DNA of 61,865 nucleotides, the filler included, from Basidiobolus ranarum (Eukaryota), in assembly GCA_040143965.1 (NCBI GenBank). It is 11 parts of 11 records of this genome, joined end to end, with 100 filler letters (N's around TTAATTAATTAA, not from the genome) between each part and the next. Parts side by side here need not be neighbours in the genome. Positions count along the whole stretch, not along the records: positions 5,644 to 11,185 come from JASJQH010008435.1; 10 more parts are not named here. One strand, 5' to 3'. Below the pieces are notes generated by a model that searched no databases, was not told the origin of the DNA, and saw only the letters and a list, made by a program, of their open reading frames with translations. Both the position numbers and the translations under genes were made by a program. The first letter of the stretch is position 1. Every line of letters begins with the position of its first letter. Of the stretch, positions 6,627 through 54,900 are shown one piece after another.

Positions 6627-7859
6627 ATGGATAAACTTAAGGAAGTAGGTTGCCTTTTATTTATTTTATAATCCTTTGGTTGAAATATATATATGCTTTA
6701 TTTCAAGCTCTACGAGAAACAAACTTGAAATTCAACTGAATCTCAACTGCTTCTTAGAAGTATAGAGCATCCTCTTGTTTATTAATATAAAATAGACTTT
6801 ACTTTCGCTCTATTTCATATTGAAAATATGTGCTCTTTATTAACTTTTGGAACCTTACTCTCATAGAGACTCAACGCACTTCGCGCTGAAGCTGATGCTG
6901 CTGCTACCCGTGCTGAAGAGGCTGAAGCTCAACTAAAAAAGTTGAACGAAACTCAACTCGACCATGACCAAGAAACCATCGGGTTTCAAAAGAAAATCCA
7001 ACTCCTTGAAGAACAGTTAGATCGTGCGGAACAAAAATTGGTTGAATCTAAAGCATCTTCTCAGGAAACCGAAGAACATCGTAGCTTAAACGATACCTTG
7101 AGTAAAAAGCTATCCATGGTAGAGGATAAATTAGAACAGACTGAAAATAAGCTTAAGGAGACCACAGAAAAGTAGATTGGTTGCTACTCACCTCTTCCCC
7201 CCTCCTTTAAATTAACCATCTTTTGTGTAGACTTCGTGAAATTGACTTAAAAGCTGAACAAGCAGAGCGTAAGGTCCACCAACTTGAGGTTGAGAGAACT
7301 GCCTTGGAGGAGAAGTACGTATTGTTTGTGCTGGGTTCCCTCCTATTTATAAAATACTTATCAATCATTTTGACATGATCAGACTTCAAGAGGCTCCAAA
7401 GTCAAGTGTAAACAATCATGAGCGCGACCAGGAATTCATCGAATTGCAAAGCAAATTAAGCATGTTACAGATTGAGTTGGATCGTACTGAAGAGAAGCTT
7501 GAGACCGCTAAGACTACACGTGTTGGAGAGGACCAAAGTAAGACTGAGATTGACACAAGAGATAAGAAAATTGGTTTGCTTGAAGATTCACTCGAAGAAA
7601 CTAAAAACCAACTTCGCGAATCTAACGAAAAGTAAGTGCTTTAACTAAACATTTTATTTCAAGAATTTCCTTCTGAACAAACATTGGATTTTATAGAGTT
7701 CGTGACTTAGATCTTAAATGTGAACAGCTAGAACGCCGTGTACAACAAATGGAGAGTGAGAGAGAAAAGATAGAAAAGCAATTGGAAGAGAAACAGCAGA
7801 AATATGATGAAGTTCGTAAGGAGTTGGATGATACTCTGAAGACAATCGAGGAGATGTAG
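6627..7859 (+). CDS. TPM: Tropomyosin with internal exon-pair duplication, 272 aa; exons 6627-6644, 6867-7171, 7231-7314, 7383-7631, 7697-7859
   Basis: The N-terminus MDKLKE|RLNALRAEADAAATRAEEAE and C-terminus ...KYDEVRKELDDTLKTIEEM* are typical of fungal tropomyosin. Near-continuous coiled coil. All introns are GT-AG and keep the frame. Confidence 0.9.
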
Positions 7860-21838: not shown

Positions 21839-22464
21839 CTAACCCACGCTGATCCTAAAGCAGAACATAGTAGTAATGGCTACGAGAATATTAGTTATTG
21901 AGGAGGTTAAGGAACTCCCTTGGTTACTGTGATGCTTCCCAACAAGGAAATCCTCTCTTAATCCAGTAGCCTCTGTGATGTACGTTAGATGATGCCCTAA
22001 ATTTGTATATATGCCGACATCGTTATCGCGATTAGTTTTATAGCAATCGATTTCTGGCTTATTTAATACTGAACTATTGGTCTTTATCCCAACCAGCTCA
22101 TATCTTTCTCCTTGAAGCGTGTATAATGGCCCTCCGACTTCCGGTAAACAGAACCCTCCTGCTACGCATAAATACGCGCTGTGGTCACTTGGGCTTCCCT
22201 GGTAGTAATTATCACAACTATTGGATGGTAAGATATGCATTTTAGTCTTACTCAATGTAGGCATCCACCCGGCAGACGACGCTTCCATACCAGGACCAAT
22301 TTGGACTGAACTAATTGGAATGGGCTGGATATGTTGACTAAAAGACAAAGACTGTCTCAACTCGATTAAAGCAAGGTCGCTCTAAATACACAAATATCGA
22401 GGCGCCTATTTCCCAATGATTTATTTAAAAGAAGTAAGACCAAACTTACATTTCCTCCAGTCTG
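21839..22464 (-). CDS. Trypsin-fold (S1) serine protease homologue, catalytically inactive, probable GPI anchor; 5' end off contig; intron 22382-22449
   Basis: NSDLALIEL (Asp102 region), IQPIPI, AGW, FCLPEVGGPL in place of CxGDSGGPL, LVGI and GIYT. The tail is Ser-rich and then hydrophobic. Confidence 0.8.
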
Positions 22465-25051: not shown

Positions 25052-25176
25052 TGTTCGAATTTTCAGTTAGGTGATATTTGACTAAGTAATGTTAACAAAC
25101 TTATATGTGATGTATGAAACAATTAGGTGTATAAACAGAGAGATAGCAAATATGATAAAGACAATAAACTTCAACA
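25052..25176 (+). repeat. LTR family B copy abutting and truncating the gypsy chromodomain
   Basis: Bounded by TG...CAACA and homologous to 16927-17033. The chromodomain frame breaks at this junction. Confidence 0.65.
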
Positions 25177-28101
25177 GCAATTTATGCCAATAAATTCTGG
25201 AATCTAGAATTTTGCAAACTTCATATTCAGGGTGTTCTTCAACTTTGAATGCTGGGGGTGGGTCAATGGATTGGCTCTGGAAGGTGTTATTGGCATGTGG
25301 CTCTTGGAGAGACACATGTAGTACATTATGGACTGTGAAACGGGCCGGGAATTCAAGGCAGAAGGCTACAGAATTGATTTGCATAATAATCTTAAAAAGC
25401 CATAATCTTTTAAGATCAAGTTCAGCACAAGGTCTAGTGGTTTTGATATTTTTTTTTGAGTAGCCAAACTTAATCTCCTGGCTTGAGATCTTAGCTTGGC
25501 TTTCTTTTCTTATCAGCAAAGTTCTTGTCTTGGGATTGAGCATGCTCCAACTTGGATATCCATTGTTTATAGACGTCCTGAAGGAAAGTGGCATGGTCTG
25601 AGGCAGCAGGGCAAGGTAGATTGGATGGTGGGTGAGCTGTTGAACAAGGATTGAATCCATAACTTGCAAAGAAAGAAGTTTGTTTTGTTGAGGTATGATC
25701 AGAGTTGTTGTAAGCAAATTCAGCTAGGGGCAAGAATTGTGTCTAATTATCCTGATTATAGTTAATAGTGCATTGCAAATATTGTTCCAAAACTTGATTG
25801 ACTTTTCTGGTTTGGCCATCAGATGGGGATGGAAGGCAGTGGAGAGATTGGCAGAGATACCTAAGGTTTGGAGAAGACTTTTTCAGAATTTGTAAGCAAA
25901 CTGAGGTTCTTGGCCAGAGATGATAGTTTCAGGGAGTCCATGTAGATGGAAGATATTTTGGAGTTACCAATTCTGCTGTTGGTTTTGCATCATTTGACTT
26001 ATTGCAGGGCACAAAGTGGGACATCTTTGTTAGATGGTCAACAATTACCAGAATTGAATCATAATTGACAGACAAGGGTAGTTCAGTTATGAAATACAGT
26101 GATATATATTTCCACTGCTAATATGGAATTGGAAGTGGTTGTAGGAGAGCACAGGGCTGATATCTTGGAGTCTTCACTTGAGCACAAGTTTCACTGGTGG
26201 AAACATAAGTCTTGACAAAGGCAAACATTTTGGGCCATTAATAATCCCTGGATGCCAACATTTTTCTTTTGGCACTATCAAAGTGATGTGCAAGTGGTGA
26301 GTCATGTCTTTCCTGCATGATTTCAAGTCTAGAAGTGTGGTCTGGAATGTAAAGGTGCTTCATATAAAGCAAGAAATCATTGATGATAGAGAAATGGTGG
26401 TACAAGTTCAAGCTTGAGAGGTGTTTGTGTGAATCCTGGGCTTTCTTGATTGATATTACCGGTGAGTCTTCAGATTAAAGTTTGCAGATGTTTTCATGGA
26501 ATGTGCTTGAACTAGGAAGAGAAAGGGCACTTGCATCACTTTGAAGTTAATCGGGCTTCAATAAGGAAGTACTTTGTTGGCCAAAGGCCTCATCCCCTTC
26601 TTCAGGCTGAAATTCAGCTCTACATGATAAGGCATCAGGTTTCCCTTGCTGGCTATCTAGTCAATATGTAATCACAAAATTAAAACTAGCAAGAAATAAA
26701 GACCATCTTGCTTGATGGCATTTGAGAACTTTGGTTGTACTACATTATTGAAGATTCTTATGATCACACACTCTGACCCATGTTTAAGAGTATGGAGCTT
26801 AGTGACTGAAGTTCTTTCCTTGTCCACATTTCCAAATGTGGCTTGCAAGTCAGCAAGAAAGGCAAGGGAGTTTGAAAGAAGTGGAGATTGACTTTCCATC
26901 AAAGTAGCAAAATAAGATAGAGCTGTTCCTGATAATAATGTCCCACTAAGTCTACTTTTGTTTGGTAAGAGGGTAGCAATGGGGTTATAACTGAATGATG
27001 AGCTTTACTTGGTTAATGAAACCACAATAGTTTTGGCAAGAGCAATCAAACTTATTTGGTAAGGTGATTTTGGGTTCAGGAGTTGGATTTGCATGATAGT
27101 TGGGGGGAGCTGGACTCTATATTTGAGCAAGAGAAGTAGAAAGTTCTTGATTTTCTTGCTGAAGCTGAGTAAGAGCTCACATGATATCTTCCATTGTAGG
27201 GGCTGGTGTAGACATAGTTCTTAATTTGAAGGGAGGGGGAAGTTTTAAAACCACAAGTTTCTCTAGGAATGATAATGACAATGCAATGTACAACTTTCCA
27301 TTGTAGAAATCATTGGTGCCTTGACCAAAGAGTATGCTGGTGTTAATGTCCTTTGATCTTGATCAAGTACTAAAGCTTTTTTGATTAAAAACAACCATAA
27401 ACTCAACCAGTAGTGTCTTGACAAGGATGCACTTAGAGCAATTATCCAAAGGTGGAAGGTACCTTTGCCTTAGCTGGGAAGCTTGAGAAAGATAGGAAAT
27501 TAGAAGGAAGCCAACCTTAGGGGATTTCAAGGTTGGAGAATAGGGATGGAGAGAAGCCTACAGGCAAGTTTAAGTAGTCTGATTAAACTGTCACAATAAG
27601 GAACTGGACAAGGACTGAAAACAATAACAAGAGGCTAGAAGGCAGGAGAGTGCTTGGGTATAGACCATAAGACAAGACAAGACAGGGAAGATTCTTTGAT
27701 GAGAATCTTTATTGATAACTGGCACTGATCAAACTGAGATCTGATCAAGGAATACTTGGAGCATACATAGATATTGCAGGGTGAAACAAAATGTACTGAA
27801 TAAGTTATATACTGTGGCAAGTTTGAGTGTTGAGGTGTTGGGGACTACAAGGACCAATACACAGAGGGATAATGTAAGGATGATCAGGTGACCTTGCATG
27901 GAAGTTCTTGGCAGAAAAACACTATGTGTGGGATGACGTCATTGGATAGGTTTCTTGGAATGTTCAAAAGAACATGACTTCCATACAAGGTAACCTGGTT
28001 GAACTAACACAAGATTGCCAAGAAAGGATGGCACAGCAGAAATGATGTCATAATCTAATAATAGAAGAGTTCTATTTGCAGTATATGAGTACTCCAAGAT
28101 C
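25177..28101 (-). mobile_element. Decayed Ty3/gypsy chromovirus (LTR ~27589-28100, gag, RNase H end, integrase, chromodomain) with protease and RT deleted
   Basis: PLAEFAYNN, GKPDALS, HNVLHVS..EP, EYEVCKILDSR (chromodomain) and gag EPKITLPNKFD. The LTR end reads ...TTATTGTGACA on the minus strand. Confidence 0.88.
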
Positions 28102-46241: not shown

Positions 46242-46313
46242 GCCTGCTTAGCGCAGTGGTAGCGCGTCAGTCTCGTAAACTGAAGGTCGCCAGTTCAATC
46301 CCGGCAGTAGGCA
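46242..46313 (+). tRNA. tRNA-Thr (anticodon CGT), intronless
   Basis: Acceptor GCCTGCT/AGTAGGC, D stem GCGC/GCGC, anticodon stem TCAGT/ACTGA with loop CTCGTAA, T arm GCCAG-TTCAATC-CCGGC (one A.C mismatch) and discriminator A. Pol III T-run at 46317-46322. Confidence 0.92.
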
Positions 46314-51905: not shown

Positions 51906-54900
51906 ATGTCAAATCTTACCGCAGAGCAACGGTCACTTTACGATTTAATTGTACAGGTACAGTTTTCTTCAGTCGAACCTTTATTTCCCTGTTCAAAATT
52001 TTAATCACTTTATTATATGCGAACAGTCTATTCAGCGCGATGTTAATCGGTTGGAGGACGCTGGAACCGATCGAGTTAGTAAACGTCGTGCATTGGAAAG
52101 TATCGAAAAGGTTATCTTCGGAAGTGAAAAGGCTGAAGATATTTATATCGTACTTTTTGATACTCTTGGTGCCACTCTATTGAAAATGAGTGTTGATTCG
52201 GTGGAAAAGTGCCGAGAATTAAGCGTTAAAATAATCGCAAAGTAAATTTACCATACCTGTATTATGCTGAAAAAACGAACCTCTCTAACTGAAGCAATAT
52301 TGAAGATTTATGAAGTCAGAAAAAGTCTCTCCTATCAGTCATGTTTTAAAAGTTTTGAATGTAGCCAAGGACAGACTAACTGGTGCTAATATTGAAAACG
52401 TCGAGGAAATTCGCTTAGAGTGGATTGAGGCATGCGGAGAAATTATAAAGCAAGGCCGTATAGAAGGTGACCAACTGAATACTCTGGTCGAAATATTGCA
52501 GGCTAGCTTACAAGATAGTTTTCCTGAACTCAAAAAAGTAATCATTATGAACTGTAAGATATTCAAATGACTTGCTAATTATGATTGATTTTACAGCGCT
52601 CTGTCCAGCTAGTAATTGAACTTGGAAGAGAGATAGGAAAGAACCTTCGTTTGCATGCCCAACCTTTAATCAAAGCATTGATTCCTTCATTAGCACATCG
52701 ACACTCGTCTGTAAGAATACTCACTCTTCAAGTAAGTATCTTTGGTGGATTATGTGATGTGAATTTTTCAGAATTTTAACTCTCTTGTCGACAGGCTCTT
52801 CAAGTATTGATTGAACTTGACATCGCTGGTCTCGACTTGGTACTAGACCACTTGCACAAACTCATCTTTGATAAATCAGCCTCAGTCCGTGAAGTGCTTT
52901 ACACTGTAGTCAAGGAGTGGATATATCAAAGATCTGGCGACAAATCCAGTTTCAAAATATTGCCAATTTTGCTGGCTGGAATTTCTGACGAAGTGATGAA
53001 TCTACAATCATTATGTAGACAATACCTTTGTGATTTAGGCCAAGCATATAGCGGCGGAGACGTGAATCCAGGTAAAATAATAACTCTGCCTCATATCTTC
53101 AAAGCAAGTACAATTTTAACATTACAAAATAGATCTATCTGCGCAGGCTTTGGTCAGAGATTCAGTCCAATATACCCTTCCGTTGATTCTTGAAGATAGT
53201 CAGCACTGGAGCGCTACCAACAGAGCGTTGGCTTTAAAGGTTCTTGACACATTTATTGAGTATGCAAGAGATGCGATTGAGAGCTATACTGCCTTAGTAT
53301 TACAGAACCTCTATGTGCAAGTTCAGCACAAGGACTCAACCGTCGTCGGTCAGGTACATGATATTTGTTATTGTCATCTAGTATACATTTGACCCCTTCT
53401 GACACTGACTTAGGGAATAAAATGCGCTGAAACCTTGGGGAGATTTGTGAATCCTGCGATTTATGCTCATCTAACGATGCAACAAGTGAAACTAGCCAAC
53501 GAAGAAGTCCGAGCTAGCTTTTTAATGATTCTCGCAGCATTCATTCGCGGATCTTCTTTTTCACAACTTAACGAAATCTCGCCATGGTTAGTGGAGAGCC
53601 TTTGTGACAAAAAGCTTATCCGAGAAGATGAATGCTTGCAGAGAGTGGTAGACATCGCGTATAGCCTGGTGACAAAGATGTCTGAAGAAAACATTTCACT
53701 CTCAAAATCTCAAGAAGGATATAAATTATTTTATCTTTTCCTAACTCTTCAAAACGATCAACAGGTAAACATTTTAAAGGATCAAAGCTATTCATCTTGT
53801 GGCAATGGCCTAATATATATCAACAATACTTAGAGCGCCGAAAAGGTTACTTCAGGAATTTCGTTTCTTGCTACTGCCCATGGACTTACCGATCCTAGCG
53901 ATCTTTATTCCATGTATTTTGACGACCTTCTTGTTAGCCTAAGGGGTAATGAACACAAGTGGGCCGTGAACTCTATGGAACTTCGCATCTTTAGGCACGT
54001 ATTGATCGGAGCTAATAATTCTATTGAGAACCATCTCGAAAGCATCTTTACTTCTTTGAAGAATCTCACTGATGTCAAAAAGGAAGTTGAACTAAGAATC
54101 AGGTATGTGCACTCCTGTCGATTTAGTCCTAGTTTAAATACTAATGAGTTGTATAACAGTGTTTTCCAAACTATGACAAATATATTTGGTTCCTTTAACA
54201 AATGGGATCGATACACCATCCCAATCATCTTTGATATTATTTTGCCCAACCTTGAGTATCGTCCACCTCAAAAAACCCCAGGAGTAAGAGCTGCCGCGAT
54301 GGAAAGTCTCTATGCTTTGGTAGAATCAAACTCTTCAAGTGCAAACTATACTCCAGAACAATCAAATCAATTAGTCATGGTTTTATGCCAGGCACTGGAA
54401 GATGAAATTCCGGAAACTCGCTTCAAGTCTTTGAAACTTCTTCAAGTATTTACCAAAGAATCCTCGACAAAAGCACCTATCAGTAAGTAAATACGGAGTG
54501 AGTCGTCTTTCTTATCTAGACTAATCATGTTTTCAGATAATTTAATCTTCATCATGTATCCCGAAATCTTGAAGAGACTTGATGATGCTCAAGATGAAGT
54601 TAGGAACGAGGCAGTCTTCGCCGTAGCACAGTTAATGGAACTTATCTCTCCAGAGTTTGAAGAAAAACATGTGGAAACGATTTTGAAAGTATTGATGCTT
54701 CAACTCAACGATGATAATTTTGCGTATCAGGTATTATATTTTATAATATTTAATTTTGTTTATTTACCGCCCTAACCTTGTATATTTTTTGTCCAGAATA
54801 AGATTATTGCTGTTCTAACTGAAGCTTCAAAGAAATTCCCTTCTCAAACTCAATTAGTAGCCAAAGCAGTCCGCCCTATTCTTCAAAATACTAATGCTTT

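What the first reader, a model, noticed from the sequence alone, without database searches (positions are those of the whole stretch)
6627..7859. Long tropomyosin built by exon-pair duplication; skipping gives exactly 161 aa
Seen: exon 4 mirrors exon 2 (DQETIGFQKKIQLLEEQLDRAEQKL..KETTEK vs DQEFIELQSKLSMLQIELDRTEEKL..RESNEK). Exon 5 mirrors exon 3 (LREIDLKAEQAERKVHQLE vs VRDLDLKCEQLERRVQQME). Introns 2-4 are all phase 2 within a Lys codon. The full splice gives 272 aa, and joining exon 2 to exon 5 removes 111 aa to give 161 aa. Established: typical fungal tropomyosin (S. pombe Cdc8, yeast Tpm2) is 161 aa, spanning 4 actins, while animal long isoforms are 284 aa, spanning 7. Inference: independent evolution of a ~7-period tropomyosin, possibly with short/long alternative splicing. 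A Pro-containing junction (LQEAPKSSVNN) may kink the coil.
Basis: partly seen in the sequence, partly recalled or inferred. Interest (0 to 1): 0.7.

Follow-up and report, generated by a model that had tools for sequence, protein, structure and literature searches.

The report
Long fungal tropomyosin by internal duplication
A Basidiobolus-like fungus has a tropomyosin gene whose middle part was duplicated long ago, so it encodes 272 residues instead of the usual fungal 161; the gene form is real and unusual, but a short spliced form remains untested.

Summary
Window 6627-7859 (+) is a five-exon tropomyosin gene with four GT..AG introns. It encodes 272 aa, and introns 2-4 are all phase 2 inside a Lys codon. 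Residues 37-135 and 148-246 align without gaps (42 of 99 identical, offset 111). This is far above plain and heptad-preserving shuffles and above every other offset.

A profile of 161-aa fungal tropomyosins hits the protein twice, at profile 1-140 and 36-161. So this is a 161-type gene with about 111 codons repeated, not an animal-type 284-aa gene.

The duplication is old: synonymous sites are saturated (pS 0.83, pN 0.38). Both copies keep the same core pattern. A Basidiobolus ranarum protein shares exon 3 and the exon 3/intron 3 boundary.

Getting "exactly 161 aa" by skipping exons 3-4 follows from the duplication itself. It is not evidence for alternative splicing. RNA data could not be reached.

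Best reading: a long paralogue of about seven periods, spliced constitutively, with a non-helical Pro-containing joint. I found no paper describing it. Verdict: a new variant of a known kind, of moderate interest.

The parts
6627..6644 (+). Exon 1: start codon and residues 1-6, a tropomyosin-type N-terminus
   Evidence: model; aligns with the N-termini of 161-aa fungal tropomyosins.
6645..6866 (+). Intron 1, 222 nt, GT..AG, phase 0
   Evidence: Part of it (6730-6762) resembles, when translated, the mispredicted N-terminus of B. ranarum P0019.
6867..7171 (+). Exon 2: residues 7-108 (the last codon is split)
   Evidence: PF00261 at 1e-15, 58.3 bits, profile 7-110. 79% identical to B. ranarum P0001.
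7172..7230 (+). Intron 2, 59 nt, GTAGAT..TAG, phase 2 in Lys108; sits at the conserved fungal intron position
   Evidence: 69 of 150 homologues are read-through ORFs that break at profile 106-111. In 64 of those 69 the next codon starts with T, as a phase-2 GT donor requires.
7231..7314 (+). Exon 3: residues 109-136, the end of copy 1
   Evidence: PF00261 profile 190-216, E 4.9e-5. 21 of 28 identical to P0001.
7315..7382 (+). Intron 3, 68 nt, GTACGT..CAG, phase 2 in Lys136; lies at the duplication joint
   Evidence: Read-through meets a stop after 20 codons. Identity to P0001 falls from 21/28 in exon 3 to 5/20 past this point. Its length is not a multiple of 3.
7375..7377 (+). ATG inside intron 3, in frame with exon 4; a conceivable but unsupported internal start
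   Evidence: ORF 7294-7635; read directly from the sequence.
7383..7631 (+). Exon 4: residues 137-219, made of the joint (137-147, Pro141 at 7396-7398) and the divergent repeat of exon 2
   Evidence: PF00261 profile 35-115, E 6.9e-4, 19.6 bits, below cut-off alone. It lies within the second hit to the fungal profile, 1.8e-32. AF2: residues 1-10 not helical, helix 11-81.
7632..7696 (+). Intron 4, 65 nt, GTAAGT..TAG, phase 2 in Lys219; positional copy of intron 2
   Evidence: Same profile position as intron 2. No sequence similarity to intron 2 remains.
7697..7859 (+). Exon 5: residues 220-272 and TAG; repeats exon 3, then gives the canonical C-terminus
   Evidence: PF00261 at 2.8e-10, 40.5 bits, profile 191-242; alignment.
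6957..7312 (+). Copy 1 of the repeat (residues 37-135, with intron 2 inside)
7417..7778 (+). Copy 2 of the repeat (residues 148-246, with intron 4 inside)
   Evidence: Terminal branch 1.52 against 0.11 for copy 1.

Best explanation
This is a nuclear tropomyosin gene of a Basidiobolus-like fungus. An ancestral 161-aa-type gene suffered a tandem duplication of about 111 codons, covering profile positions about 26-136 together with the conserved phase-2 intron. That intron is now present twice, as introns 2 and 4. The duplication joint is removed from the mRNA as intron 3, and its remaining coding part (residues 137-147, with Pro141) links the two copies.

Inferred: all four short introns are spliced constitutively, giving one 272-aa product. 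The product has canonical head and tail. Its body is two coiled-coil segments of the fungal type, each with its own four-residue heptad break, joined by a short poorly helical hinge. Like other tropomyosins it should form parallel dimers that lie head-to-tail along actin filaments. It would span about seven rather than four actin subunits, and it would work beside a separate canonical 161-aa gene.

Shown here: gene structure, duplication, its age, and retained coding constraint. Inferred: constitutive splicing, dimerisation, actin binding and the span.
For: - Structure and frame.
- Family: PF00261 above its cut-off for exons 2 and 5. The best solved relatives are 161-aa tropomyosins 8puz and 9ff9, collinear at 7-107.
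- Duplication. Two overlapping hits to a profile of nine 161-aa fungal tropomyosins: profile 1-140 on residues 1-140 at 8e-45, and profile 36-161 on residues 147-272 at 2e-32.
- Old and constrained: pS 0.83 (saturated) against pN 0.38 between the copies. An 83-codon open frame has P about 0.004 at this base composition.
- Hydrophobic a/d occupancy is identical in the two copies: 6/8 and 6/8, then 12/16 and 12/16.
- Each copy shows the +3 register shift. This matches the four-residue interruption reported for fungal tropomyosins (PMC3805550, passages).
- Shared with a relative: B. ranarum KAK9718197.1 (P0001) has exon 2 at 80/102 and exon 3 at 21/28 identical. It then diverges at the same Lys, 5/20.
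- B. ranarum also has a canonical 161-aa tropomyosin, P0002.
- Head and tail align with canonical ends.
- Joint: residues 137-146 are non-helical with pLDDT 54. The homologous stretch of copy 1, folded as a matched fragment, is helical with pLDDT 90.
Against: - No transcript or protein evidence could be obtained, and no genome is held for the window.
- No database protein matches exon 4. 142 candidates among longer proteins and 1 among proteins of near length were scored, none at E <= 0.01. So no annotated long form was found in any relative. The only annotated relative that reaches the joint (P0001, 'variant 2') stops in intron 3.
- Copy 2 is no closer to copy 1 (39.1%) than to B. ranarum P0002 (39.1%) over 110 columns. 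Its place in the tree is unresolved: branch 1.52, AU p 0.337. An intragenic origin is therefore not proven.
- An internal proline is atypical; PMC3805550 used its absence as an inclusion rule.
- The added 111 aa is 3-7 residues short of three periods, and the heptad phase shifts by 3 at the joint. Regular binding to seven actins is uncertain.
- The AF2 models are single-sequence monomer fragments, and the joint sits at a fragment end.
Confidence: 0.7

Rival explanations
1. Regulated alternative splicing. The gene makes both the 272-aa form and a 161-aa form by joining exon 2 to exon 5. A single locus would then supply four-actin and seven-actin tropomyosins, as animal genes supply isoforms of different lengths.
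For: - Every combination of exons 3 and 4 keeps the frame.
- The 1-2-5 product has canonical length and ends.
- The B. ranarum relative is labelled 'variant 2'. I read that label, from recall of annotation practice, as a sign that more than one transcript model exists there.
Against: - Frame and length compatibility follow automatically from the duplication of a phase-2 intron, so they carry no weight.
- The introns are short (59-68 nt). From general knowledge, short fungal introns are mostly spliced one by one, and exon skipping is rare beside intron retention.
- B. ranarum already has a separate 161-aa gene, P0002.
- No database protein of the 1-2-5 type was found. The exon 2 searches returned only P0001 and P0019 as close hits.
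- No RNA test was possible.
Confidence: 0.15
2. Intron 3 is not removed, or not always. The locus then yields a truncated product of about 158 aa (exons 1-3 plus a 20-residue hydrophobic tail), as in the B. ranarum annotation. Exons 4-5 might be expressed separately from the in-frame ATG at 7375.
For: - P0001 is annotated exactly this way: 157 aa, ending in intron-derived residues.
- An in-frame ATG lies 9 nt upstream of exon 4.
Against: - The tail is not conserved (5/20) while the adjoining exon 3 is (21/28).
- Both products would lack one of the two ends needed for head-to-tail assembly (alignment).
- Donor GTACGT and acceptor CAG join the frames exactly.
- A chance in-frame ATG in an AT-rich intron is not unusual.
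Confidence: 0.07
3. Exons 3 and 4 are dead relics of a duplication that are always skipped. Only the 161-aa protein is made.
For: - Copy 2 evolves faster than copy 1: branch 1.52 against 0.11.
- Exon 4 alone is below the Pfam cut-off.
- Exon 4 has no significant match among solved structures or in the protein database.
Against: - Synonymous sites are saturated, yet exon 4 stays open over 83 codons (P about 0.004) with pN 0.38-0.40.
- Exon 4 keeps the same a/d core occupancy as copy 1.
- Exon 3 is 75% identical in B. ranarum.
- All splice sites are intact.
Confidence: 0.04
4. Different origin, same product. The long gene arose by unequal crossing-over or fusion between two tandem paralogous tropomyosin genes. 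In that case intron 3 descends from an older intron near codon 137-138 rather than being born at the joint.
For: - Copy 2 is as similar to the separate B. ranarum gene P0002 as to copy 1, 39.1% each.
- The tree does not place copy 2.
- 11 of 150 homologues break at profile 135-140, mostly as ..KKYE|V... This implies an intron within 7 nt of the intron 3 donor in other fungi.
Against: - A clade of copy 1 + P0001 + copy 2 is not rejected (AU p 0.337).
- The other fungi's intron is phase 0 after codon 138, not phase 2 in codon 136.
- Exon 5 has no intron at the equivalent place.
Confidence: 0.25

Closest known systems
Saccharomyces cerevisiae Tpm1 (199 aa) versus Tpm2 (161 aa)
   Same: A fungal 161-type tropomyosin lengthened by an internal duplication that begins near codon 35 and adds actin-binding period(s). 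It exists beside a 161-aa paralogue. Sources: PMC3805550 passages and a PMC12440208 passage.
   Different: Yeast added one 38-aa period. Here 111 aa (about three periods) were added at once. The unit carries an intron, a new intron sits at the joint, and a proline-containing linker remains.
Gonapodya sp. JEL0774 KAJ3339805.1 (P0029), annotated 'hypothetical protein'
   Same: A non-Dikarya fungal tropomyosin with a lengthened core. It is 237 aa counted from an internal Met, and it gives two overlapping hits to the 161-aa profile.
   Different: Its extra length comes from 38-aa unit repeats: self-offsets 38 and 76 score 216 and 101. It is not one 111-aa block. I did not check its gene structure or true start.
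Basidiobolus ranarum KAK9718197.1 'tropomyosin-2, variant 2' (P0001) and fragment KAK9762151.1 (P0019)
   Same: Nearest relatives. P0001 is 79% identical over exon 2 and shares exon 3 and the exon 3/intron 3 boundary. P0019 is 94% identical over 36% of exon 2.
   Different: Both annotated proteins are truncated or mispredicted (157 and 66 aa). No B. ranarum protein holding an exon 4 equivalent was found, so the long form is not annotated there.
Animal high-molecular-weight tropomyosin (284 aa, seven periods; e.g. PDB 1c1g, 2tma)
   Same: Similar length and number of periods. A coiled-coil actin-side binder of the same Pfam family.
   Different: Not collinear. After exon 3 the fungal protein returns to profile 35-115 instead of covering 111-189. 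It has heptad breaks and an internal proline. So the length is convergent, not inherited.
Intron creation by segmental or tandem duplication (PMC3265369, PMC4974935; I saw only the search listing and the start of each abstract)
   Same: A tandem duplication inside a gene is linked to a new intron at or near the repeat boundary.
   Different: In those cases the duplicate is spliced out and the mRNA stays unchanged. Here both copies stay in the mRNA and only a 68-nt joint is removed. Descent of intron 3 from an older nearby intron is not excluded.

Membership tests
Tropomyosin (Pfam PF00261) | Significant match to the family profile | tested here: met
   Exon 2 scores 58.3 bits and exon 5 scores 40.5 bits against a cut-off of 38.6. 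Exons 3 and 4 match the same family below the cut-off when taken alone. A fungal 161-aa profile hits the spliced protein twice, at 8e-45 and 2e-32.
Tropomyosin (Pfam PF00261) | Canonical N- and C-terminal ends that form the head-to-tail overlap | tested here: met
   Residues 1-36 and 247-272 align without gaps to the ends of 161-aa fungal tropomyosins.
Tropomyosin (Pfam PF00261) | Coiled-coil heptad pattern along the whole length, with no internal proline (the inclusion rule of PMC3805550) | tested here: not met
   The a/d pattern is good in both copies. Residues 136-150 have only 1-2 of 4-5 core positions hydrophobic, contain Pro141, and shift the register by 3. The AF2 fragment shows 137-146 as non-helical. 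The failure is local to the joint.
Tropomyosin (Pfam PF00261) | Binds along F-actin as a parallel dimer | not testable with these tools
   The dimer job for the exon 4 product could not be queued. Spliced sequences are not accepted by the folding tools.
Fungal four-period tropomyosin (Cdc8/Tpm2 type, 161 aa) | Length of 161 residues, four periods | tested here: not met
   The full splice gives 272 aa. 161 aa would arise only if exons 3-4 were skipped, which is untested.
Fungal four-period tropomyosin (Cdc8/Tpm2 type, 161 aa) | Four-residue heptad interruption typical of fungal tropomyosins | tested here: met
   The register shifts 0->3 near residues 66-80 and again 6->2 near 177-190, once per copy. 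The feature is described in PMC3805550.
Animal seven-period tropomyosin (284 aa) | Collinear coverage of the whole family profile | tested here: not met
   Profile order along the protein is 7-110, 190-216, 35-115, 191-242.
Seven-actin-span tropomyosin (functional class) | Length equal to a whole number of actin periods | tested here: inconclusive
   272 divided by 38 to 40.25 gives 6.8 to 7.2. Self-offsets 38, 73 and 111 show periods of about 37-38 aa. The added unit is 3-7 residues short of three periods.

The most novel reading that the evidence does not exclude
Basidiobolus independently evolved a seven-period, two-segment 'jointed' tropomyosin. One duplication added three periods at once. 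The fourth period is a hybrid that contains a flexible proline hinge, and the duplication joint became a new spliceosomal intron. The protein would coat actin in seven-subunit steps beside the ordinary four-subunit fungal form. That would give a fungus two tropomyosin lengths on different filament populations, convergent with animals.
Probability: 0.3. Interest if true: 0.6.

Novelty: new variant of a known kind. Interest (0 to 1): 0.4.

Why it matters
The passages read from PMC3805550 describe fungal tropomyosins as 161 aa (four actins), with a 199-aa form (five actins) in two yeasts. How molecule length sets filament identity and cooperativity is an open topic in the field.

A natural fungal protein of about seven periods, built from 161-type parts, would be a ready-made test case. 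It would show whether length or sequence decides which filaments a tropomyosin coats. It would also show how much irregularity the actin-tropomyosin lattice tolerates: a hinge, extra heptad breaks, and a unit that is not a whole number of periods.

The locus is also a clean example of a duplicated conserved intron with an intron sitting on a duplication joint.

On the practical side, it shows that current annotations of this gene in B. ranarum are truncated.

Tried and rejected
- Own genome: none is held, so paralogues outside the window could not be sought. tblastn of the spliced protein against the window found no second tropomyosin.
- Exon 4 product against the 5.8-billion protein set, with both longer and near lengths: nothing at E <= 0.01.
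- Metagenome scan with the exon 4 product: two loci (L001, L002). Both have 61-65% G+C and match only 36 aligned positions, so I rejected them as chance.
- Tree of the two copies with 15 homologues over 110 columns: copy 2 is unplaced, so the donor of copy 2 stays open.
- DNA comparison of the copies and of introns 2 and 4: no usable similarity beyond 71 nt. Breakpoints cannot be mapped to the base.
- A crude census of donor hexamers in the window, meant to judge splice-site strength, was too noisy. Only GTAAGT stood out. I draw nothing from it.
- Complex prediction for two copies of the exon 4 product was never accepted because the queue was full. There is no result.
- The spliced 272-aa sequence and the joint across intron 3 could not be folded. 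The remote tools take only unspliced translations.
- Earlier findings of this scan: nothing relevant.
- Literature: searches found no paper on a Basidiobolus tropomyosin or on long tropomyosins in early-diverging fungi. Supplementary File S1 of PMC3805550 (alignment and species list) was not opened.

Full report
**What is there**

Window 6627-7859 on the + strand is a five-exon gene. The exons are 6627-6644, 6867-7171, 7231-7314, 7383-7631 and 7697-7859. The four introns are 222, 59, 68 and 65 nt, and all are GT..AG. Intron 1 is phase 0. Introns 2, 3 and 4 each split a Lys codon after its second base. The spliced frame is open for 272 codons and ends at TAG 7857-7859 (searches used coordinates that were off by one).

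Joining exon 2 to exon 5 gives 161 aa. Dropping exon 4 alone gives 189 aa, and dropping exon 3 alone gives 244 aa. All are in frame.

**Family**

Pfam's Tropomyosin model (PF00261) matches as follows:

| Exon | Score or E-value | Profile positions |
|---|---|---|
| 2 | 58.3 bits | 7-110 |
| 3 | E 4.9e-5 | 190-216 |
| 4 | E 6.9e-4 | 35-115 |
| 5 | 40.5 bits | 191-242 |

The family cut-off is 38.6 bits. The best solved relatives of exon 2 are 161-aa tropomyosins (8puz, 9ff9), collinear at 7-107.

The nearest database proteins are from Basidiobolus ranarum:
- KAK9718197.1, 'tropomyosin-2, variant 2' (P0001), 157 aa, 79% identical over exon 2.
- A 66-aa fragment, KAK9762151.1 (P0019), 94% identical over 36% of exon 2.
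- A canonical 161-aa protein, KAK9762412.1 (P0002), 55% identical.

The window therefore comes from Basidiobolus or a close relative. The neighbouring frames are ordinary fungal nuclear genes.

**The repeat is real**

- Residues 37-135 and 148-246 align without a gap: 42 of 99 identical, score 224. 1000 shuffles gave 66 +/- 8.6.
- Coiled coils resemble each other by composition and periodicity, so I ran two stricter controls. Shuffling residues only within their heptad position gave 17.9 +/- 20.4, max 109 in 5000, against an observed 220. Among all self-offsets from 7 to 239, offset 111 scores 243; the runners-up are 38 (137), 73 (131) and 7 (121).
- Offsets 38 and 73 are the ordinary tropomyosin period showing through. 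111 is about three such periods.
- A profile built from nine clean 161-aa fungal tropomyosins hits the spliced protein twice: profile 1-140 on residues 1-140 (8e-45) and profile 36-161 on residues 147-272 (2e-32).
- The protein is therefore a 161-type tropomyosin in which positions about 26-136 occur twice. It is not collinear with the animal 284-aa form.

**Age and constraint**

- At DNA level the copies are almost unalignable. By Nei-Gojobori counting, pS is 0.83 (saturated) and pN is 0.38.
- Exon 4 is nevertheless open for 83 codons, which has P about 0.004 at this base composition.
- The two copies have identical hydrophobic occupancy of the a and d core positions: 6/8 and 6/8 in the first part, 12/16 and 12/16 in the second.
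- Each copy shows the same +3 shift of heptad register. This corresponds to the four-residue interruption described for fungal tropomyosins in PMC3805550 (passages).
- P0001 of B. ranarum is 80/102 identical in exon 2 and 21/28 in exon 3. It then drops to 5/20 exactly after Lys136, where the window has the intron 3 donor.
- So exon 3 and its downstream boundary exist in a second locus and are conserved. The annotated 157-aa protein is a read-through into the intron.
- Together these results argue against exons 3-4 being dead relics.

**Introns**

- Of the 150 database hits to the fungal profile, 69 are ORFs that run on past profile position 106-111. In 64 of these 69 the residue after Lys/Arg108 is C, Y, W, F or S, whose codons begin with T. 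That is what a GT donor at phase 2 gives.
- Introns 2 and 4 of the window therefore sit at a conserved fungal intron position and phase, and are two copies of that intron.
- This is why any joining of exon 2, 3 or 4 ends to exon 3, 4 or 5 starts keeps the frame. It is also why removing the material between introns 2 and 4 restores 161 aa. The 'exactly 161 aa' result follows from the duplication and is not evidence for skipping.
- Intron 3 sits on the joint. Its donor (AA|GTACGT) lies in Lys136. Read-through would give Tyr at position 137, which is the residue canonical proteins have there. The donor may thus have been carved from former coding sequence.
- However, 11 of 150 hits break at profile 135-140, mostly as KKYE|V. 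This implies a phase-0 intron after codon 138 in other fungi, 7 nt away. Whether intron 3 is new or descends from that intron cannot be settled here.

**Origin of copy 2**

Over 110 shared columns, copy 2 is 39.1% identical to copy 1 and also 39.1% to B. ranarum P0002. In a maximum-likelihood tree it has a long branch, 1.52 against 0.11 for copy 1, and no supported place. A clade of copy 1, P0001 and copy 2 is not rejected (AU p 0.337). Intragenic tandem duplication is the simplest reading. Fusion of two tandem paralogues is not excluded.

**The joint**

- Residues 136-150 have only 1-2 of 4-5 core positions hydrophobic and contain Pro141. They shift the register by another 3.
- A single-sequence AF2 model of the exon 4 product leaves its first ten residues non-helical (pLDDT 54) before one long helix.
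- The homologous 82-residue fragment of copy 1, folded the same way as a matched control, is helical from residue 2 with pLDDT 90.
- This supports a local break or hinge. It is weak evidence, because these are monomer fragments and the joint lies at a fragment end.

**What it most likely does**

By family membership and its intact canonical ends, the product should be a parallel coiled-coil dimer that polymerises head-to-tail along actin. Its length corresponds to 6.8-7.2 periods, depending on the period length used (38-40.25 aa). The added block is 3-7 residues short of three periods. A partly extended hinge could make up that deficit, but that is inference only.

I take constitutive splicing to the 272-aa form as the default. 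The introns are short, with intact signals, and a separate 161-aa gene exists in the genus. No transcript evidence could be obtained, and no annotated long form exists in the databases searched.

**Comparison and novelty**

- PMC3805550 reports 161 aa in all fungi it studied, plus 199 aa in two yeasts, caused by a 38-aa insertion after codon 35. PMC12440208 calls that insertion an internal duplication.
- Among 153 database proteins examined, only one other shows a lengthened core from repeats. It is a Gonapodya hypothetical protein with a 237-aa core made of 38-aa units. One 142-aa fragment (P0027) also has overlapping hits.
- The window's gene differs in three ways. It adds about three periods in one block, it duplicates an intron with them, and it carries an intron and a proline linker at the joint.
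- Searches found no paper describing it.
- I class it as a new variant of a known kind, of moderate interest. Its value would rise if the long protein is shown to be made and to bind actin with a seven-subunit stoichiometry.

Noticed in passing
window 52780-54490 (+): Three adjoining open frames match dynein axonemal assembly factor 5 (DNAAF5/HEATR2-like) TPR and HEAT domains and an IPO5-like TPR (E 2e-11, 7e-12, 9e-5). From recall, Basidiobolus-type fungi have no flagellum, so a DNAAF5-like gene here may deserve a look.
   Followed up: no
P0001 and P0019 (B. ranarum KAK9718197.1, KAK9762151.1): Both annotated B. ranarum proteins look mispredicted. P0001 runs into the intron after Lys136. P0019 starts with residues that match a translated piece of the window's intron 1 (6730-6762), then leaves the tropomyosin frame after the residue equivalent to residue 40.
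   Followed up: partly
P0029 (Gonapodya sp. JEL0774 KAJ3339805.1): This 'hypothetical protein' of 357 aa holds a tropomyosin core of 237 aa from an internal Met, with two extra 38-aa periods (self-offsets 38 and 76). It would be a six-period fungal tropomyosin in a chytrid.
   Followed up: partly
database hits P0001-P0150: About half of the hits are prokaryote-style ORF calls on fungal contigs that read through introns. They reveal two conserved intron positions in fungal tropomyosin genes: phase 2 in codon 108 (69 of 150) and about codon 137-138 (11 of 150).
   Followed up: partly
window 25082-25723 (-) and 21839-22381 (-): One frame carries a Tf2-1-like SH3 domain (E 5.6e-6, just below the Pfam cut-off), probably a retrotransposon remnant. 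A trypsin-family frame lies nearby.
   Followed up: no
window 46242-46313 (+): A single tRNA-Thr (anticodon CGT) gene.
   Followed up: no
window 7375-7377: An ATG inside intron 3 is in frame with exon 4. It could in principle start a product of about 138 aa lacking a tropomyosin N-terminus. Nothing supports its use.
   Followed up: partly
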